From Saccostrea cucullata (lineage: Eukaryota): a stretch of DNA of 64,000 nt. The stretch covers positions 310,001-374,000 of the forward strand of contig NW_026940631.1 in the NCBI RefSeq assembly GCF_032062105.1, in the 5' to 3' direction. Positions 1,026-63,655 of the stretch are shown piece by piece. Under the pieces are notes generated by a model. That model was not told the DNA's origin. It did not search any database and saw nothing but the letters and a program-made list of their open reading frames with translations. Positions within the stretch are counted from its first letter, which is position 1. The number at the start of each line of letters is the position of its first letter. The position numbers and the translations under genes are program-made.

Positions 1026-1084
1026 ACTGCTTCGTTCCGTGTTGTTCTGTTGTTGTGTGAAGCCAGCTGGGGAAGATCTGTTTG

Positions 1085-1113
1085 TATTTATGTTTAGCTT
1101 CCTTGTGACGTCA
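1085..1113 (-). promoter_or_regulatory. Putative core promoter of GRHPR paralog A: CRE palindrome TGACGTCA (1106-1113) and TATA-like CATAAATA (1092-1085)
   Basis: Perfect TGACGTCA ~80 bp upstream of the ATG, with a TATA-like box between it and the ATG. Motif match only. Confidence 0.35.
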
Positions 1114-4375: not shown

Positions 4376-7300
4376 TTAATTCCATCTTTGAAGCACCTCC
4401 CCTTTAGGGTGGCCGTTGTTTAGTACAGTTATGATATTTTCTGCCGCTATTTCTGCCATGCGATTTCTGGACTCCCACGTATTACTTCCCATGTGCGGAA
4501 GAATGACACAGTTATTCAACGTGAGTAACGGGTGATCAGCCGGAAGAGGTTCTGGATCAGTGACGTCAAGTCCCGCAGCAGCGATTTGATTGGAAGTGAG
4601 AGCATCAAAGAGATCGGGGTGGTTAATAACACCCCCTCTCCCTGTATTGATGAGAATAGCAGAATTTTTCATTTTTTGGAACGTATCTTTGTTAAATAAG
4701 TGTTTCGTTTGAGGATTAAGATTGCAACAAATACACAAAATGTCGGATTCTTTGGCTAAATCTTCAAATTCCACATACTCTCCTCCGAAGTCAGAGTCGT
4801 AGCTCAGTTTCTGTACATCGTGGTAAACAATTCTTCCCACACCGAACGGTTTCAATCTTTTGGCCACCCCGTAACCTATACGTCCCAGACCCATTATACC
4901 CAGGGTCCTCTTCTTCATCTCCACCCCACATAACCACATGGGCTTCCACTTCCCCCATTGACCATTCTTCACTGCATAAGCACCTGAAAAATACATGCAA
5001 TGTGAAAAATTTAATTACTGTTTTTATGCCCCTGTTATTGAAGATTCGGGGATATATTATAGTTTGTGCCCTGTCCGTCAATCTTTCTCTCTGTTTGTCC
5101 GCAAAAATTTTTACCTTTCCAGAACTTTTGAGTTGGTGGGTATATGGCTTTGACATTTCACAGGTGTATTTCATCTGAAAAGATATGTCTTTGGGTACCA
5201 CCTAATTTGACCTCGTGACCTTTAATTTTTATTTTTGACGTTTGCCATACCTTTGCATGGTTGGTGCCAACGCTTTCATAATGCACATGTGTATTCACTG
5301 TGACAAGACCTCTCAAAGTACAGTATAAGCAGAATTTTTAGCGAGGATTTAATTTTGGCATTATTAGGGAGGGTGTCAAGATATAAAGCTAAAATTAAAT
5401 ATCGCTAAATACTAATTTCGTTTTATTTGTAATAGCTTCTTTGGTGAGCTTTTCAAAATCGCTGAAATTACATCTCGCTAAAAATAAAATACCATTTTTT
5501 AAAGGACAAATCGCTAAATTTGCGTCTCGCTAAAATTTCCACTTATATGGTATTAAAAAGTACACGTATTTGACCTTTTGACATTGAACAGAGATTGACC
5601 CACTTTTAAAAATTTAACCTTGACTATAACTTTTGAACCAATAGAACCAGGGCTTTCATATTCCTTTTGACCTTGACCTTGGGGTTTGACTTTGCAATAG
5701 AGAAATTTCAACTCTTACCATAAGCTGTCATACGGGGGCACCAGTGTTTCACAAACACATCTTGCTTTTTTGGCCAATACAAAGAACTAACAGAGAGCCC
5801 ATCTGATCATTAAGCTAGAACACGTAAACGCACTCGAAAAATTCAAGTACATGTATAGTTTGCCCATGTATAAGAAAAAAGCTACATGTAGATACATGTT
5901 ATAGAATAGTAATGTAATACAATACGAACATTTTAAACTTCTGTTTCGCCATTCTTTGAACATCCTTACCATATCCTCAAGAAAATCATCTCCCATTAAA
6001 GGCATTTCTCTAAAAAAAAAAAAAAACTTGCCTTCTAGAAGTCGTCTGGCAGTGAGGAGGACCAGCGCCACCGTCAGTTCCGCCACGCTGTCGGAGGACA
6101 CGTTAGGGGTATTGGTCACTGCTACACCCTTCTCCCGGCAAGCTTTCAGGTCAATGTGCTCATACCCAACAGACATCGTGGACACCACTTGCAATTTGGG
6201 ACCTGTTTCAGAAAGTCTAAAAATCTTAAAGCGAAGTGATTCCCCACTCTTATAATAGTTATTCTTTACTCGAATGCCTTTTATGTTTCGGAATTATTTG
6301 CATTTTTATGCCCCGTAATCGAAGACTCGGGGATATAAAGTTTTTGCCCTGTCTGTCTGTCTGTTAATCTGTTTGTCTATTGTGAAAATACTTTTCTTTG
6401 GATACCGTCAAATCTGACATAGGAGTTTGAACTACGTTTACTAAAAAATAATACCACTCTTTAACCTTGGTCATAATTTTTTAACAGTTGGTGCTAGTGC
6501 TTTCATACTTCACGCGTTTATTTATTGTGACAAGATCTTTCAGTGGATATAAATATTTTTGACCTTGACCCTAAAGTCTGACACACTTTTAAAAAACTTT
6601 AACTTACACCCATAACTTTTGAACTATGGCTTTTACATTTCACAGGTGTGTTCTATGTGCCAAGACCTTCCTTGGCATAGCAACAATTTTGACCTTGACC
6701 TCTTGAGTTTGACTTGCATCAGAGAAACTTCAACCCTCACTATTAGTTATGCTACACGGAGGTATCAGTGTTTCACAAACACATCTTGTTTCATCATAAA
6801 TAAGTATATCAATTTTGATTTAAACTTTCACTTGAGGATAAAATTAAATTCACTGCGAAATTTAAAGGCATTCTCTTTGAGAGAAATCAACAGTAAATAA
6901 AAAAGAAATGTAATCAAAATTATAAAGTTATTTAATAATAGTATTTTACATTACCTCAACGAGGTATTTAACGAGTAATTTAAATGTAAAATTCGGTCCA
7001 CGACTTAGTGATTAATTTTTGTCTCCCGCTTTCGCGAAAATGAGGGGACATTAAATCTCATTCGTCTAGACATCGGTCTATAGGTCAGTCAGTCTGTCAC
7101 GAAAACTTGAACCTTGGTCATATCTTTTGATCAAAAGTACAGCAAAACTCGTTTAGTACGAACATGGATATTGCGAATTCACGGATATAGCGAAGGTATC
7201 TTGGATCCCCAGCTGTTTAAATTCAACGAATTTCTTAAACGGGTATAACTAATTACGGATATAGCGAAGTAATTTTATAGGTCCCAATGACTTCGTTATA

Positions 7301-13300: not shown

Positions 13301-14023
13301 AGTGAGGCCAAAAATTTTTACAGAGGCCAAATCTGAGGCCAGGCCAACTTTTGAGGCCAGGCCAAAATTTGGTTTGAAGCCAAATTAGAGGCCAAAATAG
13401 AGGCCAGGCCAACTAAGAGGCCAGGCCAGGCCAAAGGGGCCAGGCCAGGTTTTAGAGTATGCCATTCTAGAATTGTTGTCATTCGATTAGTCTGGCTTAC
13501 ATCAGCTGAAGAAGAAGACATGTTAATGGAATTGCAGTATCGATCGACTTTACAATACTGCGCCTTTACAACCGTCCTCTAGACGTGAACAAACAAGGTC
13601 AGGGCATACAGTAGAATGATCTAGAATGGTTACGAAGATGCATTGTTATTGAGAAAACAGTTTATAGCCTTGTTCTGTTTAAATAAATACATAATAATAC
13701 ATAATAGTTATAAAAATTAAAAAAAAAAATAAATACATTCAAATTAATATCCCAAACTTATCCACGATAGCAAATACCAATATCACAAGAGAAGCAACTC
13801 GGTTACATATAATTTGTTTACCTGCATGTTCCAAAACTTCATCGTTAATTTTATCCGTTAGCATGCACAATATTGCGTCCACTCCTTTAACGTTCTTCAA
13901 AAGCTCTTCTCGTGGAATCACGTCATCACTGTCCCAGAAAGTAACGTCAAAGCTGGAGTCCAACAGCCTCGTCCCTGGGTCGGGGATCCGGCGTGTCACG
14001 TACACCTTGTACCGCTGGCTCAT
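4376..14023 (-). CDS. GRHPR: Glyoxylate reductase/hydroxypyruvate reductase-like, paralog B, complete 3-exon CDS (326 aa)
   Basis: Exons 14023-13822, 6202-6032 and 4983-4376 (202+171+608=981 nt) join in frame at phase-1 junctions. Motifs: VSTMSVGYEHID, VTNTP, GLGRIG Rossmann loop, catalytic INTGRG (Arg), DPEPLP (Glu), LPHMGS (His). Intron 2 donor is GC. Confidence 0.92.
5021..5765. mobile_element. HINE (Helentron-like non-autonomous element) with nested TIR MITE at ~5320-5553
   Basis: Starts TTTTTATGCCCC...GGGGATAT...TGTCCGTC and ends GGGGGCACCAGTGTTTCACAAACACATCTTG. Inner MITE runs TACAGTATAAGCAGAATTTTTAGCGAG...CTCGCTAAAATTTCCACTTATATGGTA. Confidence 0.7.
6303..6790. mobile_element. Second HINE copy of the 5021-5765 family
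   Basis: Same termini (TTTTTATGCCCCG...CGGGGATAT, TGTCTGTC microsatellite; CAGTGTTTCACAAACACATCTTG) and TGACCTTGACC internal repeats. Confidence 0.7.
7138..7313. mobile_element. CAG(T/C)AAAAC-type Tc1/mariner-like MITE
   Basis: Clear similarity to the element at 53316-53784 (GGATATAGCGAA/TTCGTTATA motifs). Confidence 0.6.
7783..7873 (+). pseudogene. tRNA-like sequence (tRNA-derived SINE head or tRNA pseudogene)
   Basis: A-box TAGCATAATGG (7791-7801), B-box/T-loop GGTTCGAATCC (7852-7862), ends ACCA. Acceptor and anticodon stems do not pair properly. Confidence 0.55.
7874..9190. mobile_element. HINE with GTCT/GTCC microsatellite and internal degenerate repeats
   Basis: TTAGTCCCCTAC...GGGGACTA hairpin, then (GTCT)n at ~7920-7990, repeated AGATCAAGTTTG units, and 3' GTAGGGGACA...GCTTGTT. 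Confidence 0.75.
8422..8729. mobile_element. PIF/Harbinger-type MITE (3-bp TAG TSD)
   Basis: TIRs GGCCGCACCAATTTAATTTCTTGTTCGTCGGAC / GTCCGACGAACAAGAAATTTTATTGGTGTGGCC, flanked by TAG. Removing it restores the host unit TTAGTTATAGATCAAGTTTGC seen at ~8213. Confidence 0.8.
9594..11435. mobile_element. Chimeric transposon segment: CCGA-repeat left end plus truncated copy of the Mutator-like element
   Basis: 9596-9770 has tandem (G/T)CCGA motifs. ~10350-11435 matches ~12170-13463 and ends in the same GAGTATGCC terminus. Bracketed by a 59-bp direct repeat (9535-9593 = 11436-11494). Confidence 0.6.
11539..13463. mobile_element. Mutator-like (MULE) non-autonomous foldback element with long TIRs and 9-bp TSD
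   Basis: Termini GGCATACTCTAAAACCTGGCC / GGCCAGGTTTTAGAGTATGCC. TSD ATTCTAGAA at 11530-11538 and 13464-13472. Inverted arms ~450 bp with GGCCT/AGGCC subterminal repeats. No transposase ORF. Confidence 0.85.
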
Positions 14024-14968
14024 TTTTGTGTGTGTTGTATTGAGCAAGTCACGGAATCGTGTGGATAACCTTGCTTCGCTTGGAATTTTGCGACTTAGAT
14101 ATTTTTAACTTCCAGGAACCTCGGCATCGATTTTCTCGTGGAAGCATTCAACATAATTATCGTGATCGAATTAAGGTATCCGACCCATAAAAGCCTCAGA
14201 TTCAATGAATCTGAATGTATAACAGATATACTGTTGGCCGAATACTCGGTATATGTCAGTATACCAGGTAGACATATAATCTTCGTGTTTTAGGATTAAT
14301 ATGTAAGAGCGGAATGTGTCCTAATTTTGACCTTGATCTGTCCTTGAAGAGTTACCCCCTTTGCTTAATTTTAATCAATAAAAATCATTTCTAAAAAAAA
14401 TCTATCTGGTGAAAAATTATTTTTTAATCGTTTTTCTATTCTTAATAATTAAATACATCTTTCAACTGTACATAGCATTTTGGGATATTCATAGTATGTA
14501 TTTAAATTTTTATTTAAAAAAAATTGCTTGTTCCCATAGACTTCAATGCTTTCTTCATTAATTAATTTCTGCTCAGGTAATTATATTTTTGCAAATTTCT
14601 CCTGGTAACTCTAAGTTAATACAGATTGATATTTTTTTAATGCAGAAAAAATATATATATTGGATATTTAAAGTTAGTAAAAATTCTGTGTACATATTTA
14701 TTACTTATAAATATCCAACAAAAGAACTGGATCTGATACCATATGAATCATCGTGAAATAAAAAATATATATACTAGATAAGGAAGAAGGGAAGAGTATA
14801 TTTTGTGATAAATAATTTTTGTGTACAATAGGTACACTTGATATGTTATATTTTGAAATTTTCCATACAAAATAATTGATAATATACAATTTGATAGTTA
14901 ATCCATTCTATCACAACTCAGTAAAATATTCTGTTATTTTATTTTTATGAGGTCAACGGCCAATGTCA

Positions 14969-17651: not shown

Positions 17652-18041
17652 TACAATTACCATGATTACTGTTAAAATACAGTTCAATCAGTTGTATTAA
17701 AATTTTAGAATCATCTGTACCAGATGGTAATATCACAAAGAATTAGATCAGAACTATGGAAAAACATGGGCTTAGTTGATATACTTGTATCTAGCTGTAG
17801 AACTGTAGCTCTCTTCTTGAGAAAATTCTGACAGATAAAGCAGAGACCTACAGATCCAAGCATTGTAAAAAACCTTTGATTTCTGTTACATGGAAATAAA
17901 TGCATAGTAAAGTCTACATTGTGGCATGTTTTGTTGTACAAACTACCATATAACAGATATATCACATTAAAAATAAATTATTTTATAAGACATGTATTAT
18001 AAATAAATTAAAATGATTTATTTTGCAGCTTTTCTGGTAAG

Positions 18042-18821
18042 ATGGAAGCTACTAATCATGTGACTGAGGATTTCCAGAATGAACAAGATGACAGAAGTAA
18101 GGACACACCTATCCATGCCTGTGAAATCTGTGGGAAGACTTTTGGTTTATTGGCCTCTTTAAGGGTCCATAGAAGAACCCACTCAGAAGATCGGCCTTAT
18201 AAATGTGAGGTGTGTGATAAGGCCTTCAAACAGCTGTGTGCCCTCCAACGGCACAACAGGATACACACAGGGGAGATGTTATATAAATGTGACTACTGCC
18301 AAAAAGAGTTTAATGATCAGTCAAGTATCCAGAGGCACATCAGAACTCATACTGGAGAAAAGCCTTTTGTCTGTGACCTGTGTGGAAGGGCCTTTGTAGA
18401 GAACCAGCAGTTACGACGCCACGTTCTCCGTATACATACCAACGAACGCCCGTTTGTCTGTGAAACATGCGGAGCCCGGTTTGCTGAGAAAGGAACACTG
18501 ACTTGTCATTTGTTGATTCACACCGACAAGAAACCTCATGCCTGTGATAAGTGCGACAAGGCATACCGCTCGTCTAGTCATCTAAAGCGACACAAAATAT
18601 GGGCTCATGAAGGGGTGAAGCGCATCCGCAATCCACTGAATTTAACATACACCTGTGAGGTGTGCTTGAAAGACTTTCACGACAAAAACGACTTTACAAG
18701 ACACACAAGAACTCACACTAAAGAAAAGCCCTACCAATGTCCAGTGTGTTCAAAGTGGTTCAGTGTTCAGTCAAATCGCAACAAACATGTGAGAGCAGTG
18801 CATCCACAGTCATCAATTTAA
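18042..18821 (+). CDS. C2H2 zinc-finger protein (8 fingers, 259 aa), single coding exon
   Basis: Eight CxxC-x12-Hx3-4H units with TGEKP-like linkers. Splice acceptor TTTTGCAG at 18028 just upstream of the ATG implies an upstream exon (candidate donor at 16509). Confidence 0.9.
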   Translation: MEATNHVTEDFQNEQDDRSKDTPIHACEICGKTFGLLASLRVHRRTHSEDRPYKCEVCDKAFKQLCALQRHNRIHTGEMLYKCDYCQKEFNDQSSIQRHIRTHTGEKPFVCDLCGRAFVENQQLRRHVLRIHTNERPFVCETCGARFAEKGTLTCHLLIHTDKKPHACDKCDKAYRSSSHLKRHKIWAHEGVKRIRNPLNLTYTCEVCLKDFHDKNDFTRHTRTHTKEKPYQCPVCSKWFSVQSNRNKHVRAVHPQSSI

Positions 18822-23764: not shown

Positions 23765-26700
23765 ATGTCTGGATCTCTTTCGGTGGTTTCCTTTGAAGGG
23801 GAACTGAATGCTGTTGTGCAGGAGGCAAGTATTTAAGATTGAATTCACATATTTTTTTTTTAAAAATTGTAATCTTGGTAGTTGGTAAATAAAATAAATT
23901 CATGAAAATATTCTATGCACTCATGTTTAGATTGTTATGTTTAAATCATCATGTAAATATTGATTAATATTCAAAGTTTGTCACAGATATCATAGGTTAT
24001 TAAAGATACATTACCTAGTTCGTATTGTTTGAAAAATTCTTTTAAAATTTTTTCTTTTTCATTTCAGTATCTAGAGTTTAGTGGCTTTGATAAATGTACA
24101 TCAGTGTTCCTCAAGGAATGTGAGCAGAAAAGCAAACCTATAGCAACTCACAGTATCAAATCCAAATCCAATCAAAAATTAGTCGCAATTCAGGTAATTT
24201 CTCAAACATGTCAAATAGTATTGAATCCAATCTCAAAAAGATCTCAGAAAGATGTTAATCAACATTAACATCAAGATAATTTTTACAGACTGAAAATGCG
24301 AACATGTTGAAATTGGGTTTTTATGCTACATACCAAGTTATTTTCTTGATTGAGAAAATTTCCTTGTTTTGAAGTAAAGATGCAATAATTTTTTTTGCTT
24401 GTATCTAAATATTACATATTTCATTGTTGGTTATCATCAGAAGATTTGCTATCAAGAATTAGTCACCTGAATATGAAAACAAAAAATAATACACTGTCAA
24501 AATAACAGGATATACACAATTATATTATTTTTTTTCACATGTAAGTTTGATTGAGAAGTATTCTTTGTTACAGGAATTGTTGTACATTCACCTGTCACTT
24601 ATTATATGTACTAGCTGGAACTTTGTTCTCCCTCTTTGACAGAATGAATTGATGCAACACTTCCACAAAGGAAGGAGGGAGAAATTTTTCAAAGAATGGA
24701 ATGACAGCCTCCATCCCTCTATCAGAGATGGGGACGCAGTGGCAAAGAAGCTGGAGTTCTACCTGAACATTTACTTTGCAACCTTTCCCATAAAATTTGC
24801 CAGAGGACAGGTAAAGCATGCAGCTTATGTTCAATTTATTTCTTTAATTTTTAAATGAAAATGGAAATAAAAATCTTGTTTGATTCATTTAATTATTTTC
24901 AACATTTTGATATTTATTTAAAGCATTGATGAATGACAATTTTAGCATTAAAACCACTTACGTTTTACTTACTCCTGGGGTAACATGCTAATATTTCAGA
25001 GGGAGGCAGATCGAGCTATGGGAGACTTCAAGAAATATCTGGAGACGAGGGGTGCCTCTCTAAGTCAGACCACTGAGTTTCTGCCTTTTTATGCCTTACC
25101 ATTTGTTCCTAATGCCAAGAGTCACCCATCTTACAAAGAAATCTTTACAGTAGGCATTTCTATCAGCAACTTAACATATTCTACAGATTATCATTAAAAT
25201 ATGTACTCCATGATGACAGTAGTCTTATTTGTAGGGAAAATATATGCTGTGTTATAATTCCTGAAACTCTTATTACTTTCTTTACAGGATTCTTGGGTAA
25301 AAGATCTAGAAGTTCGAGTGGAGAAATTTCTCACCCTGACCCTTAAGTCAAGGCCACAACCCAAACTGTTTGAACTTTATGTATCCTTAATTCATAAAAT
25401 GTTTGAGATTTCCAATAGTCACATTTAAACCTCCATAGGACTCTTCAAAATACATTTGTAATCTGATTTCCGGTAATTACTGGTATTGATTTGTATAAAA
25501 GAAAATTTCCTTAACTCTTTATGACAGAGAGGAAGTAAAGATGGAGATGAAACAGGTAAGAAATAGAGAGAAACTAAAAAAAAATCAATATTATAAAGAG
25601 GGGCAGAGTGATACGAGAGTTGTGAATATACAAGTAAATGTGGTTTGAAATTTTGAATATACTGTGCCTGGATGTACAGTAGAGGGACCCTTTTTTGGGC
25701 ACATGGTTAATTCTTGAAAAACCCCCAAGACCTGATTTCATTTCAATAACTTTATAATATTGCTAGTGCTAATACATTTTTGTGGAAAAAGTACATGACC
25801 TACATTTAAAGGTACTTGGACACAGATTTGAAGTTAATATTTTCTCATTTTTTCTGTATAATATCACGAATTATATATTTTAATAGCATTTCACACAAAA
25901 ATTAATTAAAAATTTTATTTCATTTAAAAGTTATTAAAACTTTAAATTTTTTGGCGGGTTTGATTGACACATCCTTGCACTTTCACAAATTTTAACTTTA
26001 TTCTTAATCCTTAGGAAAAGTAGCAATTTTGATGTGTTTTAATGAGAAATATTAAAACTTTTATCAAAAAAAATAATTTTATTCAGAGTAGAAATGTTAG
26101 AAAGCAAAACACCTTCACAAGTATCGTCATTCCGAACTAAGAGATGCGTACAGAGTTTAGCAAATCGAGCACACTCGTGTTATGTACACAGTTTTTGTAA
26201 ACAGGGCTCGAGTTCTGTTATTGTTTATATTTAGAATTCACCGTGTGCGTTCAATCGTCACAGTCTGCTTACTACAACTGCACGGACTGACAATATATTG
26301 TGTGTATGTTTTGCTTTCGAACGTGTCTACTCTGAATTTTCTGGATTATAGTATTAATATTTTTCATTTATACAAAACGAGATTGCCACTTTTCCTAAGG
26401 ATTAAGAATAAAATTAAATTTGTGAGAGTGCAAGGATATGTCAATCAAACCCGCCGAAAAATTTGAAATTTCAATATCTTTTAAACGAAATAAGATTTTT
26501 AATTAATTTTTGTGCGAAATGCTATTAAAATATATAAGTCGTAATATTATAGAGAAAATAATAACTTCAAATCTGTGTCCAAGTACCTTTAACATGTACT
26601 AAAATTTTCATACAGCATGGAAGGAAAAAAAGAATTCAAATGTTTTATTTTTAAAGCTATCCTTTGTTACATCAATAGTATTATAGTTAAAAAAAATCGC

Positions 26701-29700
26701 TGATGTCGTTTTTGTTAATAATAATTTCTGCAGACCAATTTCAACAAATATCTCGCCTGCAACAACAACTGGTGGACTCGGAGCGTAAAACAATGTCTTA
26801 CATAAAGCGCCACAATCGAGTACAGGTAAAGATAAAAAATGTCTTCACATGGCACAGAGCACCTTAAGCACCTGTTGTATAGAGGAGTCAAGGGAGGAAA
26901 TCTGATGCTGTTTCAGGATACTGTCTCTGTGCATTCACTCTGTATACTAACGTTTAGTTCAATGGGGATCTTAGCTGTTGTATGCTATTATTTTGTTACT
27001 AACACAGTCTGTTCTTATTTTGGTCTGTCTGTGGGAAAACAGTCAGCTTTGGGGTAAGTTTTATCACCAGAGACAAAATTCCAAGAGTTCTAAATGATTT
27101 TGTTGAAAAGTATAGTGTAAATCTTCCAATATTTTAATGTGAAAAATATTTGTAAAATTCAGATTTTGTCTTTGGTGTCTTCAGTTTGATTTTGATTTTT
27201 GACATTTTAAGCTGCACATTACTAGAGTGTTAGAGAGTATTTTAGGCAGATTGCTATCATTGTTTCCAACTCCCTGTAATCTTCAGATAAGCACAATTTT
27301 AAAGACAGGATACTATTTACATGTAGCTGAAGTTGACTTCTGTTCTCTATAAATTTATTTATTTTTACTTATTTTTAGTACTTCTATTATTTTCATTATC
27401 ATTTTGGCTTTATTTTTTTTGGTTTTTATATAAAGACTTATTCCAAGTTTACTTAATATTGTACATGTACAATTAAAACTAGGATTAATTTTAAACATTG
27501 AATTTTGCTGACTGATTTCTTTCTACATGTACATGTATATAAAGGATTGTTTCAATTGTTGATCTATCAATGAATCATTAACTTATATTACACTGTACAC
27601 AGATGTCATGTACATGTACATGTATAGGTAGAGAATTACTTTAACTAATTGAAAATTTTCTGTGATATCCATTGCTTCCGCTAAGTACATGTACCTGGTT
27701 TACTGTTTAGGGAGTAAATGTTCTTAAATATTTGTTATAGTTCCTTTTTTTAATGGAGGAAAATAATTTTAGGCTGATTACCACAACTTGATTGGAATTA
27801 CAGCAGACTTGGTAGATGCTCTAGAGTCCACTGTTCAAGGAAAGCCGGTAAGATTTATCTATCATTTACACTTAAGTTGATAATCAGACATTTAATAATG
27901 ATTCATTAGTATGTCTCTGATAGATTTTGTTGTCACAGATCTGTAATATATAGATAATATATTTAACAGAATATTGGAATTTCTGCATTATGTGTACTCT
28001 GAACAGCTGTATCTATAATATTAGTACAAACTTCTGTTTCCTTATTAAATAATCTGTTGTATAGATGAATATAAACCCCACATGGCGATTTTGGTTGATA
28101 AGTTAAGGTACTGTAAAATTACATGTTTTCATGGGGTCAGAGTTTTAGAAAAAAAATCTTTTGGTTCGTAGGGATTTGATTTTGAGGATCAAGAATTAAT
28201 GATTACTTAAGTATGTAACATTTCGAGGTGAACATGAATTCGTTGGTCTCGTCATACCTCGAAAACAATGAAAATTAAACCCCCTCGGAAATTTGTAATT
28301 TCGCAGTAATTGTGTCTATTTCAGATAACTCCTGAGTATCTACAGGAGATCTGTTCACGTCTCTTTAGTCACCATGTCTCCGGCTCCGTCGATTTCACAC
28401 GGCCAGGTACAGCTAGTCATTTTCTCCGACAGTCCATTGCACCACAAGTGTAAGTATATCTTACTGGTTTATAAAAACTATAAACATATTTTATTGTAGC
28501 CTTATTAGTACTTCTGAATTTCAGGTGTCTAAAATTAAAATTAATGATGATTGAAGTTGCTAATCCACTTGGATAGTTTTTTTTTCATTTGACTCACTTA
28601 CCAGTATATTTTTTCAACACTATTATTCTTTACTGAATTAAGATGTTCGCAAGTGAGTTAAGGCTTCATATGGAGGTTTCTATGCAAAATATCTAATTAA
28701 ATTCCATAATTGCTCTACCTAACGCACAGAAAATGTTAAGACTTGTTTTATAATACATTCTTGGTACCCACGACATGCGATAGCCAGTACACATTATGAC
28801 GTCATATTATGACGTCATCAACTCTACTACACAAGTTTATAAGAAACATCAACAAAATCGCTTCGGCGCAAGGGCATACCTTACTTTGTTTTACAGAAAC
28901 AAGGTAGAAAAAGACGCAGGATATTCCAAGGATTTAAGATATTGCTGCACAAATGTCGGCACTACAATTGTTCAGTTACTATTCGTGCAGTTTTAAGTTA
29001 AAAAAGGGTAAAAATTCACAGTCCAGTGTAAGTTTCCTAATATTTTTATCGATTAAGAAAGTTCATAGGATTTGTGCAGCAATTTTATTAATTTTAACAA
29101 TATTCTCCTTAATATTATACATTGTTCATTTTGAATTAGATATGTTATGCCCTTGCGCCGACGTGATTTTGTTGATGTGATTTATTACCTTGAATGAGAG
29201 AGAGAAATGACGTCATGATATGACGTCATAATGTGCACTTGCATTAATAAACTGAGGGTACTTAGTTTGTATTAGAAAATCAATTTGATCTTTCTCTGTA
29301 CATAAAATATACAAATTATGAATTTTTATTAGCTCATTTGCATAGAAATATTAATATTTAGCCTTAACTCACTTGCGTTGGTGTGTTGTTTACAGGCAGC
29401 CCATGCAGGAGCCTGATGCCTACCCACCCCTAGACTACACCAAGGTCAAGGATGATCTAGCTAATGGACAATACAAAAGAATAGCTCTACTCCTACAGGC
29501 CATCAGATGGGTGAGATTTATTTAGCAGAAATTATATTTGCCAAGTGTTCCTTTTGCTGAACTGATTTTCAATCTTTCTATTTGGTTCTCTAAAGTAAGA
29601 ATCAGGGGTATCTTTTAAAAATCTTTCAGTTTATGCCAGATTCATAACTCTGGAAAATGTCCTCCTGTAGTAAGCAAAAGTAGGTCTGATTAAAAAAAGG

Positions 29701-32700
29701 GACAGACATTATTTAAAGTACAAGAGTAAAAATTATTAAAAAAAAAAGTTAATTAAATAAAAGTTGCTGTCATTACAGAGGCTGACCCAGTCCAATCCCC
29801 AGCAGAGAGACACGACGATGACGGCGTACAGAGATAATGACCTGTTAGGGTGTGCTAAAGCTGGGGCTCACAGGGTAGGTCTGACGGCTCTAATACAGAG
29901 TACGTGTATGTCTTGTGAATTATCTAGAGTATTATTATTTATTGTGATATCGGAATTACAGACAGCAGTCCTGGGTCTTCTTACCTCCCCTGATGATATG
30001 GTGAAACAGACTGCAGCCAGACTCTTCAATGCATTTGCTTCTCTCTGTGCAGGTCAGGAAATCAATATTTTATAATATATATAGTGGTCAGGAATCACAT
30101 TTACATGTAGTTCTTCATATATCCTGTATTAATTGTTGATTATTACATATGAATGCAGCAGATATAGGTTTCAGTATCAGTATCATTGTGATCAGCAACT
30201 CTTCACTGTATCACACCTTCAGGATAAACGTATTGAATACATCGTACATGCTTTTCAGGGAGAACCTATCTGGCTCAGAACCAGGATATAGGCTCTGTTT
30301 CCATAGTATCAGTATCAGAGAAATTGTGATCAGAAACTCAGTCTTAGGTCACTGTATATCACACCTTCAGGAGAAACTCAGTCTTAGGTATGTAGTCATG
30401 TTAACATTCAGTGTATATCTATCACCAGAGAAATGGTGCTTTTCAGGGAGAACCTATCTGGCTCAGAACCAGGAATTGTTTAAGGCTCTGTTAGACAACC
30501 TCCATAGTGAGGAGAAGGAGTCTATTACCAGAGAGATGGTGTTAGGGGCACTCCAGAAACTCAGTCTTAGGTATGTAGTCATGTTAACATTCAGTGTATA
30601 TCTATCACCAGAGAGATGGTGTTAGGGGCACTCCGTAAACTAGGTCTCAGGTACCCAGTGAGTAGTCACCACATTTCATTCTTTTTAAAATTCAGTTAAC
30701 GTCATTATATTCTTGGATTAATAGTAACAATCTTTGTCATTATTTTATTGTAATTTCCAATTCTTTTGTCTGATCTATGTTTCAGTAGGATTATCTGCGG
30801 TTTTTTTTACAGACGTAACCTGCAGTCCTCTATGATTGATGCTGGGCTGATTGAGTGGCTTGTCAAAGTTCTAGAAGATAATGACAACCTGTCAGATTAC
30901 ACTTTAGAGTACTCCGTGGCTCTTCTCATGAACCTCTGTCTCAGAACGTCAGGTAAGGTCACGCAGTAATCTCATCATCATGAACCTGTGTCTCAGGACA
31001 TTTGTGTGTATTACTATGAAGCGCAATGAAGTGGTAAAATTTTCTGTTTGGATGGAACGTTTTGAGCTATCTTTAGACATGCCCATTTCTTTAGAAAGGA
31101 AAATTCGGTCAAATGATTCAATTGAATACCTGTAGAACAGGTATTTCATAAATATAATAGCCAATGAAATTGACAGTCTAAATAAACACCGAGTAAACAC
31201 GTGTTCGACCAATACATGTATTATTGTAATTACAATCAACATTATAAAATTATAATTATGTGCAAATCCGTTGCAATGCGTGTTTTACATAAGCGGGAAG
31301 TCTATATATAGCTCTTTCTTATTTAAAAATCTTCATTTCATTGTAACTCATGTTGCTTGTCGCGGAAAGTGTAGTGTCCTAAGACATTACGATGAATATT
31401 CCTTTCTCATTTCTAAAGAAATGGGCGTGTCGTTATGTTATAATTGACGTTCAAAACATGACTCAGGACGTTTCATCCAAACGGAAAATTTTACCGCTTC
31501 AGTGCGCTTCATTGTACTCATGAACCTGTCTCTAAATGTATGGCAGTGTTATTCAAGATTTTTTTACTCAGACCTTCAGGTAATGAACCTATTCTATATT
31601 ACCGTATTTGGCCGAGTATAATACGCATTGATGTAAAATACGCACCCCCCTTTTTGAGTCTGAAACTGGGGAAAAAAACGCAGTTCGGATGTATTATACG
31701 CAACAGAAAAATTTACCAAGTGATGTTCTGAACCGGTAATTTGCTACGAAAATCGGCGCGAGGATTAAGTGTCAAAAATTTACTGAACACACTTTTTTCT
31801 AAAATACACACTTTATAACTTCTCTTAATCCTGGCATTCCATATCGCGGCAATCTGGAGAAAATTATTTATTCATTTATTTCAACAAAGTACAAGATAAT
31901 ATTGCGTAAAAGTATTAACAGATTTTTTTAAAGAATAGTTACAGTGATTTTGAAATAATGCGTCGCCGTATTCTTAGATGAAATAATTTTATTTCAACAA
32001 AGCAAGAGATATTGTCGAAAGTTTTATCAATTGTCATATTTAATTTTGGTTCTAGATAATCATGCTGAAAATTATCTTACAATATTTTAACAGGAAACGA
32101 AATTGAAACATCAAAGTATTTATTTCTTTAAGAAGACTACAATTTTCCTCTTCTAAATCTTCGCGGATATCTTATTTTCTAGATGATACCACCTTTATTA
32201 AAAGTTTAAGCATAATTTATTTTTCATTTGTCAACTCTCAATTATTTAAACAAGAGGCCGATAAGTATAAGGTAAGGTAAAATTACATTTAACAAGTGTT
32301 AATTGTTTAAAGTGCCGTAATCAACACATGCTCACCATGCTCACACAAACCGACCCCCTTTTTAACAAAGAAAATAATCAAAGCAATTAACATGGCAGTA
32401 AATAATCAGTGCTGTAACTGTAAAAACATTGCTTTGGAGTCGGTAGACAATTAATTGCCCCGAGGGGTGTTGATAGGTAATTATCATTTGACCAGCGCAC
32501 GTGTGTCACAACATTGGCTTCCTTTCATTGGAACGTATAGAGGGGTGTTAAATATTGTTGCAGATTATCAATGAGTTATTTTAAACCTAAAATTAATATT
32601 TATTGTATTTCATTAAAAAATGATTTATTACTTTGTCTGGCAGATAAGGTGCATGTGCACTATCATTACGGAAACATGACATAAGCATGAGTTAACGTTT

Positions 32701-35700
32701 AACATCAGTAATTCTCGGAGACAATCAACATGCAGCTCAAATTACTTTTAACTTACTTTTTCATATTATTTTGGTATCAAAAGATTGTAAAAGTGACATT
32801 TTTAAGAAGCATACCTTCCAACAATAACTTTCCGAAGTTTAAAATATGGTAATAAACAAAAGAAATTGCATATGTCTCTAGGTAATACTACGGTATGTAC
32901 GTATGATAGCCGTGTTTCACCTGAAAGAAAAACTTGTCAAAATCCCATTGTGATGTAAAATACGCATCCCTTTCTCACAGTAATTTATTTTAGGAAAAAA
33001 GTGCGTATTGTACTCCCCGAAATACGGTAGTTGTCACAAAGGAGAGGACATTGTAAGTTTTCAGAACTTGTTTCTGGTCCTTTTTAAACTATAAAACTGC
33101 AGTATGTTAGAATCAGTAGAGGTTAAATTTAAAACAAAATATTGCTTTTACAAGCTAGCTTCATCTGTTTTAGGCAAAAAGCGTTGTGTGGGAAATGCAC
33201 ACCAGACCCTGAAAGTGCTAAGTGATCTCCTTGGACATGAAAATCAGGAAGTAAGACATGGTTACACAATTTTATAGCATGAAAAAGTTGATGTTCCATG
33301 ATTTAAAAGTGTAGAAGTAGGATATTTATACAAGCTTAAACATTATAACAATGTAGTGAATATACTGAATGTATACATTGACAGATCCGTCCTTATGTAA
33401 ATGGTGCCTTGTACAGCATTTTAGCTATTCCATCCATCAGAGAAGAAGCAAAGGCTATGGTAAGACTATCTTTCTTCCTTATTAAGTGATTTGTGTTTTA
33501 CCATTACGCATGGTTCCAAAAATTGCACCCAAACCCACATCTACATGCGAGCGGTGCGGATCTTGTTATGTGTTGGTGTTAGCAGGCATACTCTCTCTAA
33601 ACGATCCTTGAGTGTGCTCACACCCCCAGATAAGGTCGGTTAAACTATGAATAGGTTCTGTCATAATCTTTAAACTTTTCATACTGTTATAAATTTTAGT
33701 GTTTTAGAATTGTTGCATATTGGTTTGAGCATAAATGGTTGTAGAATGAATAAAACTTTTATACAAGAATTTAAATTTGTAGGTATATATGAGGTTTTTG
33801 AATGAATTTTTCAATAGAATTGAGTTTAAAAAGTAGAATTTTTCTTAAAATGTCAAATAAAATTGCTATGTAAAAATAGTGCTATTTAAAAGGGAGGTAA
33901 TTATAATCAGATGAATTTGAATTATCTTTCTTTGATTTTCTAGGGTATGGAGGAAATTCTGCGATGCTTTATTAAAGATGATCAACCAGATATGAACAGA
34001 CAGATTGAATTTATCATAAAACAGCTGAATTCAGGTATGTCCTTCAGATAAAAGTGAATGTCTATGTTTGCAACAGATGTACATTTAGTCATTTTTAAAA
34101 ACTATTTAAATTCAGACCTGTGAATTTAGAAAAATTCTTGTATTTGATAATGAACACATGATATCTTTGAAAAGAAATTTGAAATAGGCCTTTTATATTA
34201 TTTTATGATTCATTGATATGTATGAAAAAGAGTTTAGAATTAAACGTGTATTAATTACTCTTGGTCCTCAGCGGAGACTGTAGACGAGTACGAATCAGAT
34301 GACGAGGAAGATGACGAAGAAGAGGTCAGTGGGTTTTAAGTTTATTCAATATTCCTTATAGTTTTATAAAGTATTCTATAAAATTAAAAAATATATATAT
34401 TTTACTGTTTGAAATTAGTAATTTGTATGGGTTTTTAATTGGGTTTTGTTTTTTTGTATTCAGAGACCGAAAAGTTTACATCCTCCAGAAAATGTAAACA
34501 TTTCATTCTGCAGTATGTCTCTCCTTTAAACCCCAAAATAAATCCAATTGAATCATTTATTTTCTAACCCCATAAAATATTACCCCACAATTAGGTAAAT
34601 TTACAAACAGTTCAAAAATTATAAATTTATGTACGTTTATAAATGCCAGATAGTACAGGTATTTGACATAATCATTTTTTGTAGGAGGACCAGGATGCCA
34701 TGGAGTTAGATTTAGACAAAGACGAGGACATTCAGATTGATGACAGTGAACCGACGGGAGAGAAATTACTGACAGAGGAATACCAGGCTCTGGCCGGCTC
34801 TGGGAAACCAAAGAAAAAGGTCAGGGCGAGAACTAACAAGAAAGATCACTCCTGAAATGATAATATTTTATTGATGCAGTAATATATGTTGAAGATTTTA
34901 ATAAATGTCAGTGATTGTTTAAAGGATATGCTTTTTTGTTTTATAAATCTGATAAATTATTCTTTTAACTATTTTTAGCATTTTGATGCAGTCATGCATG
35001 AACCTCTCCAGAGACCGATTACTCCAAGTCAACGTCGCGCTACAGAGCATCCGTCAATCATCCAGTGAGTGATCATATATAACACAGAAACAATCAGATT
35101 AACATTCAAAGTATTTACCAGTTATCTAATTTGTTTATCAATTTTTTTAATCTCAATTCAAAAACACAAATTCCTGAGAAGATTTGTATTTATGGATTTA
35201 TTGTAATTTTCATGATCATTAGTTATCGTTCTGTATAATCTTTGGAACTGCAAATATATTTATCCCGCTTCAGACAAATTTGTCGATTACTGATTGGATA
35301 AAAGCTAATCACGTGACGCCCTGAAATTTTCCGTATTACGTCTCCGTTTCCATATTACGTCTCCGTCGAGGCGTAATATGAAAATCGGGCACGCGATTCC
35401 GTTCGAAGCGTTGTGATTGTAAATAAAAATGGCGGCTAAGAAACGGTTAAACGTAGGTAGTTCAGTTAAATTTCTTGTTACCATAACGATATTTTATGTT
35501 GATTGTTATTGGATAAAAACTAATATTTTCATAATATTCACAAATATTTTTTTTATATTGAAAAAGGTCTTCAGCGGGATAAATTCGTTACACAGTCAGT
35601 TAGTGACCTAATATGGATTCATACAGGGTGTGAAATGGAAATCCGTATTGGGACTCGGCTTCGCCTCGCCCAATACGGATTTCCATTTCACACCCTGTAT

Positions 35701-59974: not shown

Positions 59975-62007
59975 AATTCAATATTGCAGACACATTGGAA
60001 ATCATTTTCAGTGGACTAAATTTTACTAAGAATTGACTATATATTCTAATTCAATGTTGGGCTTGCAAAGCTGAAAGACTGACTTAATATTCTAAGAGCT
60101 TTTTAGAGCTGTAATAAAATCAAAGAAAGGATTGAACAAAAATGATTGAATTCATTAAAACATTAATAATTTGTAATGCATAATCAATAAAGCCAGCTTT
60201 GCCATCTAAAAGCAATTTTTAAAAAATGACAAAAAACACTCAAGCTAAAAGCTGCAGTAATCTTAACTATACAACAGCAAGTACATACATAAAATCTTTT
60301 GCCAGATCAGTTGGTTTGACATAACGCTTTGTAAAGCTTGTAAAATTGCAAGGATATATTATACTAAACATGCTGTACAACATGTGCATGTGTTATCAAT
60401 GTGTGTGATATAATACTCAACCAAGTCTTCAAGCAATTTCAGCATTCTTATTGCTTACAAACATGTTTAATAGACTTCTTCACATTTGGTACCATACAAT
60501 GAAATCCAAATTTAAGGACAGATTTAGATAAGAGAAGAAATATTTCAAAAATTAAGTGCCTGCAGTTAACGGGTCAGTAATTGAAATAATGGATTCATTT
60601 AGTTGATGAAGACTAGGTGTTTACATATGTGCATGCAACATGCCTCTACACATGCCTGTGATTTAAGATACATGTACATATATTACATGGGTGAATTCAT
60701 TCAAAAAAAGCTTTTTATTCACTGCACTCCTACCTATACCAAAGTTAATTGCCTAATAGGGGATTTATTTTGTCTTGGGTTGATGACTGATTTATATATT
60801 AACTCATAAAATGAAATTACTTGCTGATATTTCTAAACTGTTGAAATACATGTAAAAAAAAATCTTAACCAACAGTCTATTTGCAAATTTTGATATCCAT
60901 ATTAAGTCAGTTCACAAAATAAAGTTCATGCTCAAAACAAAGAATCTAGAAAAAATGTTGAGGTCTCCTAACTGATTGTTACTGAAGAGTATGTTCTGAG
61001 TGTGATCATTAAACAGAGGCAGGCTACTGTCCAATAAGTTGAACTCATTACAATTTACAAAATTTTCACCTATTACACTTGAAGACTGCATTGTGTAAAT
61101 TTTATGGCCATTATAATGGCCCTACTTGCATATACAACCTGTTGTTTGGCTTGACTGACAAGTTTCCCACTAATCATTAATGAAGCCAATGTTTGTAATG
61201 GTATACTTTTTTGAATACATATTACTTGATCAGTATCTTTAGAGGACTGACTGTGTGCTGGGTCTACAGGAGATGCTTACTCCTCCTCAGCACTTGATTC
61301 TATATTTAGATCTTCCAGAAGTCTGTGTTTCCCCATCACGTACTGTTAAACATTCTATCTAGCTGTAGTGATACAAACTTGCCGGGTGTTATTAAGTGCA
61401 TTTATGCAGTAGTGGAGTTAATGCTAAATAGCTTTCTACTTTTTAAATATTCCAGGAATTTTGTGAATGTTGCAAACTCTATACATGAACATGGTGTGAA
61501 CTGGTGAGTAAATGATTAAAACAAAATTTTACAGAGCAGCCAGTAAATGAAAGTGTTTCTCTGTTCTAGCGGCTCAACACCATAAACCTGTGGACAGACA
61601 AACACATGACCACACACAATGTAACAGTGGTTCTGACTGGTTCAAATATTACAGCAACCTTTCAAAAAAACTAATAAAGCCTGCAATGCATTCTCATTAA
61701 TAGAATAAACAGGCAGCATGGACTCAGTCATGAAAATTTAATTATGTGAAAATAATTTTGCAAATACATTGCTATCTGTGCTACCAATTCAAGTTCATAA
61801 ACTATAGATAAAAAAAAAAAGATTTAAGATTCCTGTAATATTTTTGAGTCTACCAGAACCACAAAGTTGTATCATATATTAAATTAGCTAGAGTCACATG
61901 AAGTTAGGAGCCACACCAGGACAAATACTCACTTGACTGGCAATAACCGCTCATCGTAGGGGGTTCTAGGAGGGGGAGGGGAGTCACTGGACGGCTTTGT
62001 GTCTTTA
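42248..62007 (-). CDS. CEP104: Centrosomal protein of 104 kDa (TOG domain + C-terminal zinc fingers); 5' exons lie beyond the window
   Basis: Phase-consistent exons: 62007-61933, 59329-59280, 52937-52855, 52609-52445, 51666-51605, 51368-51296, 50548-50483, 50388-50264, 50087-49853, 49712-49617, 43796-43714, 43616-43508, 42880-42742, 42555-42412, 42291-42248 (TGA). Hallmarks: YSKTWSYREDALL (TOG), CIFCGERNESFTEEGLDLHYWKHCPML, EHLLTEC, HCPLCHQNI...GWKAHLM. Confidence 0.93.
43095..43507 (-). repeat. 48-bp tandem array derived from the CEP104 zinc-finger exon end plus splice donor
   Basis: Unit = AAACATTGCCCTATGTTAAAGAGATGTACAAACTGTAAACAG|GTCAGT, i.e. the last 14 codons of exon 43616-43508 plus 6 donor nt. 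About 9 copies, some truncated. Confidence 0.9.
44255..45335. mobile_element. HINE containing a Cg170-type 166-bp satellite array (~5 units)
   Basis: TTTTGGCCCCA recurs at 44464, 44630, 44796 and 44966 (spacing 166/166/170). GACGACAAC microsatellite and AGCTCACTTGAGCC-TTC-GGCTCAGGTGAGCT terminal hairpin. Confidence 0.85.
46068..47780. mobile_element. PIF/Harbinger-type MITE (TTA TSD) interrupted by a HINE
   Basis: TTA|GGCCAAAAAAAATTAATCAATTGTTTCTCAGGC...GCCTGAGAAACTATTAATTAATTTTTTTTTTGGCC|TTA. Confidence 0.75.
46465..47705. mobile_element. HINE with ~161-bp tandem array (7 units)
   Basis: TCCAAGGGG at 46525, 46688, 46850, 47009, 47169, 47330, 47491. AACAAGAG start, GACC/GACA microsatellite, ATGCCCTCCC...GGGGGGCAT end. 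The ORFs here are repeat artefacts. Confidence 0.85.
48333..49133. mobile_element. HINE with ~150-bp tandem repeats (~4 units)
   Basis: AACAAGAAATC start; repeated GCCTCAGAGAAGATTGTGTTAAAATTTCAAG; GGAC/AGAC microsatellite; TATACCCCCC...GGGGGTATA end. Confidence 0.8.
49276..49323 (-). CDS. CEP104: Candidate 48-nt cassette exon of CEP104 (DYQPSPRPKKHKSKLK)
   Basis: CCTTTAG|...|GTACCC, phase 0-0, open and basic like the flanking linker. Confidence 0.5.
50678..51295 (-). repeat. ~50-bp degenerate tandem array derived from the CEP104 exon 51368-51296 end plus donor
   Basis: Recurrent CCCA...TAAAGCAGGAGATA(C/T)T|GTAA units directly downstream of the exon. Confidence 0.75.
50858..51090. mobile_element. 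Tc1/mariner-type MITE inserted in the exon-derived array
   Basis: TA|CCGTATATCCG...GGATATACGG|TA. The empty site matches the neighbouring unit TTACAATATATTGTCTCC. Confidence 0.8.
53122..53286. mobile_element. Short CAGT-terminated MITE
   Basis: TA|CAGTAAAACCT...AGTTCAACTG|TA. Confidence 0.55.
53316..53784. mobile_element. Tc1/mariner-type MITE
   Basis: TA|CAGTAAAACACG...CGTGTTTTACTG|TA. Confidence 0.8.
54700..55110. mobile_element. GGCGGATCCAGG-type short TIR element
   Basis: GGCGGATCCAGG (54703) / CCTGGATCCG (~55095), with internal poly-C and poly-G runs. Confidence 0.55.
55603..56107. repeat. ~171-bp near-identical direct duplication (55603-55774 and 55937-56107)
   Basis: AAAGGAA(A/G)TGCGACAGA...AAATGACGTAATAC occurs twice. 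Confidence 0.85.
56557..56876. mobile_element. Short element with HINE-like hairpin+microsatellite ends in inverted orientation
   Basis: TTTTTACCTCCC...GTCTGTCTGTCTGTTACGCTT ... AAGCGTAACAGACGGACGGAC...GAGGGTAAAAAA. Confidence 0.6.
57031..58632. mobile_element. HINE with ~170-180 bp tandem repeats
   Basis: AACCAAGAGGCCCACAGGCC start; repeated CCTGGGGCCATAAAATTCACAATTTTGG; GACGGACGAC microsatellite; AGGTCAC-TCAG-GTGACCT end. Confidence 0.8.
59906..59971. repeat. (TA)n microsatellite
   Basis: About 33 TA units. Confidence 0.95.
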
Positions 62008-63655
62008 CTGATTTACAAAGAAAATTGGTCAGTCTATCAGTTCAGTGAAAATCTTATCGGGGTATAAATAACATGGAAAGTTCTGGTATACTGCTCTTCA
62101 TAGATTTGTCTGTTTTTTTTGGGTAAACTAATTGACTATAAATAGAATAATTACAAACCAAGAAAAGGGACAATAACTTTCACATTGCAAAGTGCAGATG
62201 TCCAGAAAACATTTACAGAACCATTTACAAGAACTTCTTTTACATAAAAAGATTAAAAGATTTCTCTGTTGTTCATTATAATTTCAAATGGGAATTTACA
62301 AAATTTTGCCTCTCCACTCAAATTCAAGAACTGAAAACAAATATCGGTAGACAAATATTCCCTTTCGAAAACTATGAAACATATTTGATTGCGCCCATGA
62401 CAAAAGGGTCCTTATGGCATTTTTGCTAAAACAGAGAAATAACGTCATAAAGATGTGACGTTGCAGAATGACGGTGAACTTCGACGCAGATTTTTTTAAC
62501 CACGTGTTTTGACAAACGACGCATTTTATGTTTTTATCGCTGTTTCCAACATGTGGAATTTATTTTCATTTATAAATCAATTTAATCAATATCTGAATCA
62601 CTAATCCATTGATTTTTAAAAGATATTAATAAAAACATTTAGAACTGGTTTCTTACCAAACATTATTAAATACGTCTCTATAACATGTATAATACCAATA
62701 GTTTTCCTACATGCGTAAATGTATAGAAGCTGTAGACAAGGTGTTTTCTGATATGATAATGAACCTTTATACTCTAGATAAATTTTATTTACATATTTAT
62801 ACCATTTTAAGAATACATCTTAGACAGGGTATATCGTAAAAAAAATTGCAAAGGAAAATATTGTCTTCCTACTTCTTTTAGATCCGCTCCACCATTCTCG
62901 CGATCGCGTCGATCACACGTAAACATTGATTCATCAGTGCATACTGCTTTAACTGTTGTTAAACTGTTTGTACAAATGTTGAAACTAAACATACATCTTC
63001 CACGTTTTCTACAAATCTAGCAAGAATGTGTAAGAACGATTGTCAAGATTATTTGTATTTTCTATATATAAAAATAGGAGAGATAACTCTGATGTAAACA
63101 ATCGATGAAACACAGTAACAGGGGTACCAGACAGGGACATTCATTTTAGCTATTGCGTACTTTTTCACATTTCAGCTGCATGTTCGCATGAATTTGCTTC
63201 CAGATTATGAGAGAGATATTTTATGACCAAATAAAAACACTTTTAATCGTCAGCATAATTATGATTTTTTAAATAAAAAAATATTGTTGTACTTTGGGAA
63301 TAAGGTTTATGTAGAAAAAGGAAAAACAAAGAAAAAAAAAGGAAAACTGCAAAATTAAACAGACTTTAATTTTTTTTTCAGATCTCTTATCTATAGCTTT
63401 TTTTTTGCATGAAATAATTTCATGGCGAATTTAATTTTTTTTTAAAAATAATAAAAATGTAAAGCGTCTACCTTATAATCATGATTAAATAAATTAAAAT
63501 TTTAAAATGTTGTTTTGTCTTATATTCGTGTTGCACAACTTATATTCGTGTTGCACAAAGACATTTCAACTAAGAGAAATTAAAACAAGCAAAAACATCC
63601 AAATGAAAATAATGTTCTTTATGTTCTAACTTAAATAGAGCTGGTCAAGTAAATC

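What the first reader, a model, noticed from the sequence alone, without database searches (positions are those of the whole stretch)
23765..62007. ARMC9 and CEP104, partners in the ciliary tip module, are immediate tail-to-tail neighbours
Seen: stop codons at 38408 (+) and 42248 (-), with no gene detected between them. Established: both are Joubert-syndrome genes acting at axonemal microtubule plus ends with TOGARAM1, CSPP1 and CCDC66; in human they are unlinked (chr2 vs chr1). Inference: possibly an ancient or selected functional micro-cluster with shared regulation or overlapping 3' UTRs.
Basis: partly seen in the sequence, partly recalled or inferred. Interest (0 to 1): 0.7.

Follow-up and report, generated by a model that had tools for sequence, protein, structure and literature searches.

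The report
Oyster cilia genes, likely passive neighbours
Two cilia-tip genes, ARMC9 and CEP104, sit tail-to-tail in this oyster, likely as an inherited by-product of gene shuffling on a shared ancestral chromosome rather than as a working cluster, while CEP104's head-to-head neighbour on its other side, DFFB, is the same in oyster and human.

Summary
Observation confirmed. Single-copy ARMC9 (+, stop 38406-38408) and CEP104 (-, stop 42250-42248) converge across 3,839 bp with no gene found between them; CEP104 starts 9.7 kb beyond the window.

The pair is not oyster-only. Accession and scaffold proxies put the genes together in two scallops and two ids apart in Nucella. They lie 87-3,158 ids apart in six other invertebrates and on separate draft scaffolds in mussels. 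They share one chromosome-scale sequence in 25 of 27 invertebrates and 0 of 10 vertebrates. So the chromosome linkage is ancient, but the adjacency is patchy and confined to molluscs in these data.

Against a functional cluster: the orientation is tail-to-tail, the spacer holds a dispersed repeat, CSPP1 and CCDC66 lie on other contigs, and no direct ARMC9-CEP104 binding is described. Co-expression was not tested.

The deeper link lies just outside the window. CEP104 is head-to-head with DFFB, start codons 2.6 kb apart, as in human, mouse and chicken.

Verdict: a real, old, probably neutral mollusc neighbourhood next to a likely bilaterian-age CEP104-DFFB pair.

The parts
23765..38408 (+). ARMC9 coding span (ATG to TAG), multi-exon, 832-aa isoform
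   Evidence: tblastn of P0001 on the window; Pfam; stop codon; single locus in G000
38409..42247 (.). 3,839-bp stop-to-stop spacer holding both 3' UTRs; no gene found
38409..39990 (+). Region covered by contigs that continue from the ARMC9 last exon; likely ARMC9 3' UTR, possibly running on past 40315
   Evidence: X3 records 6 and 7 (38343-38628, 38624-39052), X5 record 11 (38743-39257, 39793-39990), joint 39990>40315 in X5 and X8; unstranded contigs roughly 93-97% alike in exons
39998..40292 (.). Dispersed repeat copy inside the spacer
   Evidence: 39 other places among the 40 scored of 4,468 candidates, 86-96% identity; skipped by the joint 39990>40315 in 2 of 4 runs
40948..41067 (.). Hairpin-like sequence, probably a small repeat; not a miRNA by score
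   Evidence: 3 Rfam miRNA hits, all below gathering score; many contigs pile up there
41486..42247 (-). Likely CEP104 3' UTR (about 760 nt), with an ATTAAA on the - strand at 41500-41505
   Evidence: contigs spliced to CEP104 exons or overlapping such contigs reach 41486-41542 in 6 of 8 runs; hexamer scan
42248..62009 (-). CEP104 3' part (residues 344-883: linker, TOG, ZnF, tail). The 5' part (residues 1-343) lies beyond the window at G000:C22768:379174-383701, followed head-to-head by DFFB/CAD at G000:C22768:386337-394493 (+)
   Evidence: tblastn of P0175 and P0398; Pfam; DFF40 search

Best explanation
ARMC9 and CEP104 are tail-to-tail neighbours here, likely because shuffling within a chromosome they have likely shared since early bilaterians brought them together in a mollusc ancestor and no breakpoint has since fallen between them in oysters or scallops. 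Inferred: each gene has its own promoter and 3' end; the spacer carries no shared function; the constraint at the locus sits on CEP104's 5' side, where CEP104 and DFFB likely share a bidirectional promoter as old as bilaterians, and ARMC9 is a passenger at its 3' side. The vertebrate split is inferred to follow genome duplication and reciprocal loss from one ancestral linkage group.
For: Shared chromosome: both genes report the same sequence length in 25 of 27 chromosome-scale invertebrates, including Liolophura, Lineus, Tubulanus, Owenia, Ptychodera, Glandiceps and two Branchiostoma species, and in 0 of 10 chromosome-scale vertebrates (invertebrate tally). Adjacency is often broken: GenBank id or tag gaps are 87 (Littorina), 260 (Bradybaena), 540 (B. 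lanceolatum), 1,607 (Patella), 1,721 (Pomacea) and 3,158 (Owenia). The genes are on different scaffolds in 6 of 10 scaffold-only species and in the draft assemblies of two Mytilus species. The spacer carries a dispersed repeat. CCDC66 and CSPP1 family hits are on other contigs. PMC12170345 says no direct ARMC9-CEP104 interaction has been described, could not confirm the weak co-IP, and calls the module non-stoichiometric (passages). PMC3514665 finds ancient co-regulated pairs enriched for 5'-5' orientation, 68.6% in Lottia (passages). PMC13508932 counts 2,471 especially close pairs in Spiralia from 2,361 markers and leaves selection versus neutrality open (passages). DFFB-KIAA0562/CEP104 is head-to-head in human (TSS distance 259 bp; 53 bp in a later annotation), mouse (435 bp) and chicken (supplement rows).
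Against: Close linkage has likely lasted since the oyster-scallop split (more than 330 My, the calibration quoted in PMC10225492): Mizuhopecten has consecutive GenBank ids and Ylistrum has both genes on one 220,813-bp scaffold. Nucella has them two ids apart on a 1.67-Mb scaffold, which has a crude chance of about 1-2% across seven lineages if the order is independent. An adjacent pair within a five-gene module is a priori rare (about 0.0007-0.0008). 10.1101/817213 reports ARMC9-CEP104 co-IP (passages). No background rate of oyster-scallop neighbour retention was measured, and co-expression was not tested. Id order is only a proxy, and RefSeq XP order failed the positive control (25 apart for this adjacent pair).
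Confidence: 0.65

Rival explanations
1. A selected ciliary micro-cluster: ARMC9 and CEP104 share an enhancer or chromatin domain, so adjacency is kept in bivalves and some gastropods.
For: Both genes belong to one module. Close linkage in an oyster, two scallops and Nucella. Low prior chance for a five-gene set. Littorina (87 tags) and Pinctada (42 ids, order doubtful) may be loosely near.
Against: The pair is split in Mytilus drafts, Patella, Pomacea, Bradybaena, Owenia and amphioxus. Convergent orientation is not the enriched class. There is a repeat in the spacer. No third module gene was found on this contig for the two families that gave a hit.
Confidence: 0.2
2. The adjacency is young (oyster lineage only), and the scallop and Nucella signals are looser linkage or artefacts of id order.
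For: Adjacency was read from DNA in this genome only. RefSeq id order proved non-positional. Pinctada, by recall a closer relative of oysters than scallops are, shows 42 ids between the genes. Orientation in scallops and Nucella is unknown.
Against: Ylistrum has both genes on one 221-kb scaffold, whatever the id order, and Mizuhopecten has consecutive ids on a 2.3-Mb scaffold.
Confidence: 0.1
3. The two 3' UTRs overlap and regulate each other as sense-antisense RNA.
For: Convergent orientation, a spacer of only 3.8 kb, and contigs that suggest a long ARMC9 3' UTR of at least 1.6 kb.
Against: Contigs over CEP104's likely 3' UTR end at 41486-41542 in 6 of 8 runs, beside an ATTAAA on the - strand. 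This is a weak hint only: the contigs are unstranded, come from a divergent relative, and no DNA run was laid.
Confidence: 0.05

Closest known systems
Clade-specific stable or close locus pairs (PMC13508932; passages and supplementary PDF seen, tables not readable)
   Same: Two loci from one ancestral chromosome that become close in one clade and vary in distance elsewhere; thousands are reported in Spiralia.
   Different: Here closeness is patchy within molluscs (split in mussel drafts and most gastropods seen), so it may fail that paper's 50%-of-species threshold. Whether the pair is in its tables could not be checked.
Conserved ancient microsyntenic pairs, co-regulated class (PMC3514665; passages seen, supplement unavailable)
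   Same: CEP104-DFFB fits: head-to-head, short spacing, shared between a protostome and vertebrates.
   Different: ARMC9-CEP104 is tail-to-tail and not adjacent in the annelid, amphioxus or vertebrates examined. For CEP104-DFFB only one invertebrate was examined.
Human bidirectional pair DFFB-KIAA0562/CEP104 (PMC1487180 and PMC6585903, supplement rows seen)
   Same: Same two genes and same divergent orientation in this oyster.
   Different: Oyster transcription starts were not mapped (ATG-to-ATG 2.6 kb; human CDS distance 5,197 bp). PMC1487180 lists the pair as without shared function.
Ciliary tip module CEP104-CSPP1-TOGARAM1-ARMC9-CCDC66 (PMC12170345, 10.1101/817213; passages seen)
   Same: Both oyster proteins carry the family domains of the human members.
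   Different: The module is a protein network, not a gene cluster. Oyster CEP104 has no SxIP-like motif in its last 120 aa, whereas 4 of 4 vertebrate proteins checked do.

Membership tests
ARMC9 orthologue | LisH + CTLH-like + ARM domains, single copy | tested here: met
   about 50% identity to vertebrate ARMC9
CEP104 orthologue | N-terminal domain + TOG + ZnF, single copy | tested here: met
Co-regulated ancient microsyntenic pair (ARMC9-CEP104) | Adjacent in several distant animal lineages | tested here: not met
   by id and scaffold proxies, within 2 ids in 2 of 9 species with GenBank ids on one sequence, both molluscs; far apart in Owenia and B. lanceolatum; separate in 10 of 10 vertebrates
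Co-regulated ancient microsyntenic pair (ARMC9-CEP104) | Head-to-head orientation with short spacer | tested here: not met
   tail-to-tail
Co-regulated ancient microsyntenic pair (ARMC9-CEP104) | Co-expression above matched neighbour pairs | not testable with these tools
   only contigs were served, which give no expression level
Co-regulated ancient microsyntenic pair (ARMC9-CEP104) | Conserved intergenic sequence | not testable with these tools
   no relative genome held; the spacer holds a repeat
Convergent pair with overlapping 3' UTRs | Transcript ends overlap | tested here: inconclusive
   unstranded contigs of 8 runs from a divergent relative
Clade-specific close pair | Close in most species of a clade, variable outside | tested here: inconclusive
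   close in this oyster and two scallops; separate scaffolds in two Mytilus drafts; unknown in other oysters, Pecten, Mercenaria and Mya, where only RefSeq ids or contig lengths were available
Ancient head-to-head pair (CEP104-DFFB) | Same genes adjacent and divergent in distant lineages | tested here: met
   oyster; human, mouse, chicken; only one invertebrate examined
Ancient head-to-head pair (CEP104-DFFB) | Transcription starts under 1 kb apart, shared promoter | not tested
   oyster 5' ends not mapped; ATG-to-ATG about 2.6 kb

The most novel reading that the evidence does not exclude
An ARMC9-CEP104-DFFB block formed in a Cambrian mollusc ancestor by adding ARMC9 to a bilaterian-age CEP104-DFFB promoter pair, and has been kept by selection for joint ciliary expression in oysters, scallops and a whelk: a functional cluster of ciliary-tip genes.
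Probability: 0.15. Interest if true: 0.65.

Novelty: new member of a known kind. Interest (0 to 1): 0.3.

Why it matters
If neutral, the pair is a synteny marker and a caution: genes of one pathway that share an ancestral chromosome will sometimes be neighbours, and being unlinked in human says little. If selected, species with and without the adjacency (scallop versus mussel, Nucella versus Littorina) would give a natural test of whether gene position tunes a ciliopathy module. The CEP104-DFFB pair, if confirmed in more invertebrates, is a bidirectional promoter kept since the protostome-deuterostome split between a Joubert gene and the apoptotic DNase. I did not find that oyster-vertebrate link in the listings of the paper searches made, but it may be in supplements I could not see.

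Tried and rejected
RefSeq XP numbers as a position proxy: rejected, since the pair adjacent in this window is 25 apart and the congener 520 apart. Gaps for Pecten, Mercenaria, Mya, Mytilus, Liolophura, Tubulanus, Ptychodera and RefSeq amphioxus were therefore not used. Pinctada (42 ids, 945 tags) is kept as doubtful.

3' UTR overlap by public RNA contigs: the bin 41236-41479 has no cover in 4 of 4 runs and no listed contig bridges the two genes, but missing cover in contigs proves nothing. All 22 runs held under a tenth of the words, and 8 of 22 were laid.

Metagenome scan for ARMC9 neighbours: 30 loci, 0 of 30 with a credible CEP104 profile match (best E 0.85); most end inside the gene, so it is uninformative.

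TOGARAM1 position: the CLASP_N search rang nowhere, so it is unknown.

Strict X-box pattern (recalled consensus): no hit in the window or three flanking loci; no control was run, so it is uninformative.

Hidden gene or RNA family in the spacer: none found.

Literature: ARMC9 + CEP104 + synteny gave 2 papers; in the passages seen, 10.1101/817213 uses synteny only for zebrafish togaram, and the other was seen as a listing only. A search for a 1p36/2q37 paralogon gave one relevant paper among 15 listed of 188, which lists CROCC at 1p36 and CROCC2 at 2q37 but argues against whole-genome duplication (PMC6585022, passages), so that paralogy rests mainly on recall.

Earlier findings of the scan: nothing in 3 look-ups.

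No complex or fold job was run, as none was needed for a gene-order question.

Full report
Observation. The window is G000:C22768:310001-374000 of a 1.17-Gb assembly with no relatives held. An exon search returned P0001, named ARMC9-like of Saccostrea cucullata by NCBI and 100% identical over that exon. It tiles exons from the ATG at 23765 to the TAG at 38406-38408. CEP104 runs on the minus strand to a TGA at 42250-42248; residues 344-883 lie in the window and residues 1-343 beyond it, with the ATG at G000:C22768:383701. Family domains pass Pfam cut-offs for both genes, and each has one full locus in the assembly. The 3,839-bp spacer has no frame over 84 aa, no Pfam match in 5 frames tested and no Rfam match at gathering score. 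It holds a copy of a dispersed repeat at 39998-40292.

Chance. With 25,000-30,000 genes, an adjacent pair among five named genes has a probability of about 0.0007-0.0008. It is 5-6% for about 40 Joubert genes, and 8-40 adjacent pairs are expected among 500-1,000 ciliary genes (set sizes assumed). One adjacency in a wide scan is therefore not evidence of function by itself; its spread across species is what counts.

Spread, chromosome level. No relative genomes were available, so I used the contig length and accession printed with each homologue (searches list the best 120 of 884 and of 1,379 hits; searches cover 30 clusters). Among invertebrates present for both genes on sequences over 10 Mb, 25 of 27 species report the same length for both. 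They include bivalves, gastropods, a chiton, two nemerteans, Owenia, two hemichordates and two amphioxus species (tally; two amphioxus hybrid assemblies left out, both also matching). Dreissena and Biomphalaria differ, the latter perhaps through two assemblies. All 10 chromosome-scale vertebrates in both lists differ (Acipenser sinensis, on small scaffolds, and Lepisosteus, without a contig for ARMC9, left out). This fits one ancestral bilaterian linkage group (24 such groups, PMC11175523, passages), split in vertebrates. That the split came through genome duplication and reciprocal loss between paralogous 1p36 and 2q37 is inference from recall; the one relevant paper found disputes the duplication model. 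The chr2 position of human ARMC9 is recalled; chr1 for CEP104 is.

Spread, gene level. RefSeq ids failed the positive control (25 apart for this adjacent pair) and were dropped. GenBank ids or tags for 9 species with both genes on one sequence give gaps of 1 (Mizuhopecten), 2 (Nucella), 42 (Pinctada, order doubtful), 87 (Littorina), 260 (Bradybaena), 540 (B. lanceolatum), 1,607 (Patella), 1,721 (Pomacea) and 3,158 (Owenia). That these ids follow position is assumed. Ylistrum has both genes on one 220,813-bp scaffold. Of 10 scaffold-only species, 4 share a scaffold (this oyster, two scallops, Nucella) and 6 do not (Physella, Bulinus, Elysia, Aplysia, Batillaria, Lingula). Draft assemblies of two Mytilus species also separate them. 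Close linkage therefore likely predates the oyster-scallop split (over 330 My) and may reach the bivalve-gastropod ancestor, but it is frequently lost and was not seen outside molluscs. Adjacency in other oysters and orientation in scallops and Nucella were not seen directly.

Function. PMC12170345 (passages) states that no direct ARMC9-CEP104 interaction has been described, that a weak co-IP could not be confirmed, and that the module is a flexible network rather than a stoichiometric complex. 10.1101/817213 (passages) does report the co-IP. CCDC66 and CSPP1 family hits lie on other contigs, in a fragmented assembly where that does not exclude the same chromosome; TOGARAM1 was not located. 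Co-regulated ancient pairs are enriched for head-to-head orientation (PMC3514665, passages), which this pair lacks. Clade-specific close pairs number in the thousands in Spiralia, with cause left open (PMC13508932, passages). Public RNA contigs, roughly 93-97% alike in exons, confirm the splicing of both 3' ends. Those after ARMC9's stop cover up to at least 39990, and those over CEP104's likely 3' UTR reach 41486-41542 in 6 of 8 runs, next to a minus-strand ATTAAA. This is only a weak hint of separate ends. Co-expression could not be tested.

What lies on the other side. The gene 5' of CEP104 is DFFB/CAD (CIDE-N and DFF40 over cut-off; the only DFF40 locus found), on the plus strand with its ATG at G000:C22768:386337, about 2.6 kb from CEP104's. 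Supplement rows list DFFB-KIAA0562 as head-to-head in human (259 bp), mouse (435 bp) and chicken (PMC1487180), and CEP104-DFFB at 53 bp (PMC6585903, 12 of 15 files searched). That KIAA0562 and the mouse partner BC046331 are CEP104 is recalled, and for human it agrees. The same two genes, each found once in this assembly, in the same orientation in an oyster and in amniotes most simply descend from the bilaterian ancestor. This rests on one invertebrate, and oyster transcription starts were not mapped.

Mechanism and verdict. Most likely (0.65), intrachromosomal shuffling placed ARMC9 at the 3' side of an older CEP104-DFFB unit in a mollusc ancestor, and slow rearrangement in oysters and scallops left it there without a shared function. 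Rivals are a selected ciliary cluster (0.2), a young oyster-only adjacency with misleading proxies (0.1) and UTR overlap (0.05). The ARMC9-CEP104 link did not turn up in the paper search, nor the oyster-vertebrate CEP104-DFFB link in the listings. The supplement of PMC3514665 and the tables of PMC13508932 could not be read and may list either pair. It is a new member of a known kind, with interest 0.3.

Noticed in passing
L003:2337 to L004:493 (G000:C22768:386337-394493, +), beyond the window end: DFFB/CAD is head-to-head with CEP104, as in human, mouse and chicken; likely the deepest conserved adjacency at this locus.
   Followed up: partly
window 816-1139, 4376-6293 and 13739-14104 (-): Exons of D-2-hydroxyacid dehydrogenase (GRHPR-like by recall) genes, with two separate N-terminal exons, suggesting two tandem copies or alternative first exons.
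   Followed up: partly
window 18012-18821 (+): Single-exon C2H2 zinc-finger array upstream of ARMC9.
   Followed up: no
window 42248-42290 (-), CEP104 tail: Oyster CEP104 has no SxIP-like motif in its last 120 aa. 4 of 4 vertebrate and 4 of 16 invertebrate proteins checked have a match, so EB-dependent tip tracking may differ.
   Followed up: partly
window 36909-38343 (+): Contigs of 4 of 4 runs splice straight across a short exon near 37016-37034 that the 832-aa isoform appears to include; alternative splicing of the ARMC9 tail.
   Followed up: no
window 30255-30660 (+) and L002:5664-6427 (-): Partial duplications of exon ends inside introns of ARMC9 and of CEP104, the latter with about six extra copies of a 20-codon exon end.
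   Followed up: no
L002:775-2885 (+): Two long ORFs (397 and 310 aa) that look like a LINE reverse transcriptase by eye, inside a CEP104 intron.
   Followed up: no
window 44340-49100, 57400-58600: Arrays of high-copy tandem and dispersed repeats in CEP104 introns.
   Followed up: no
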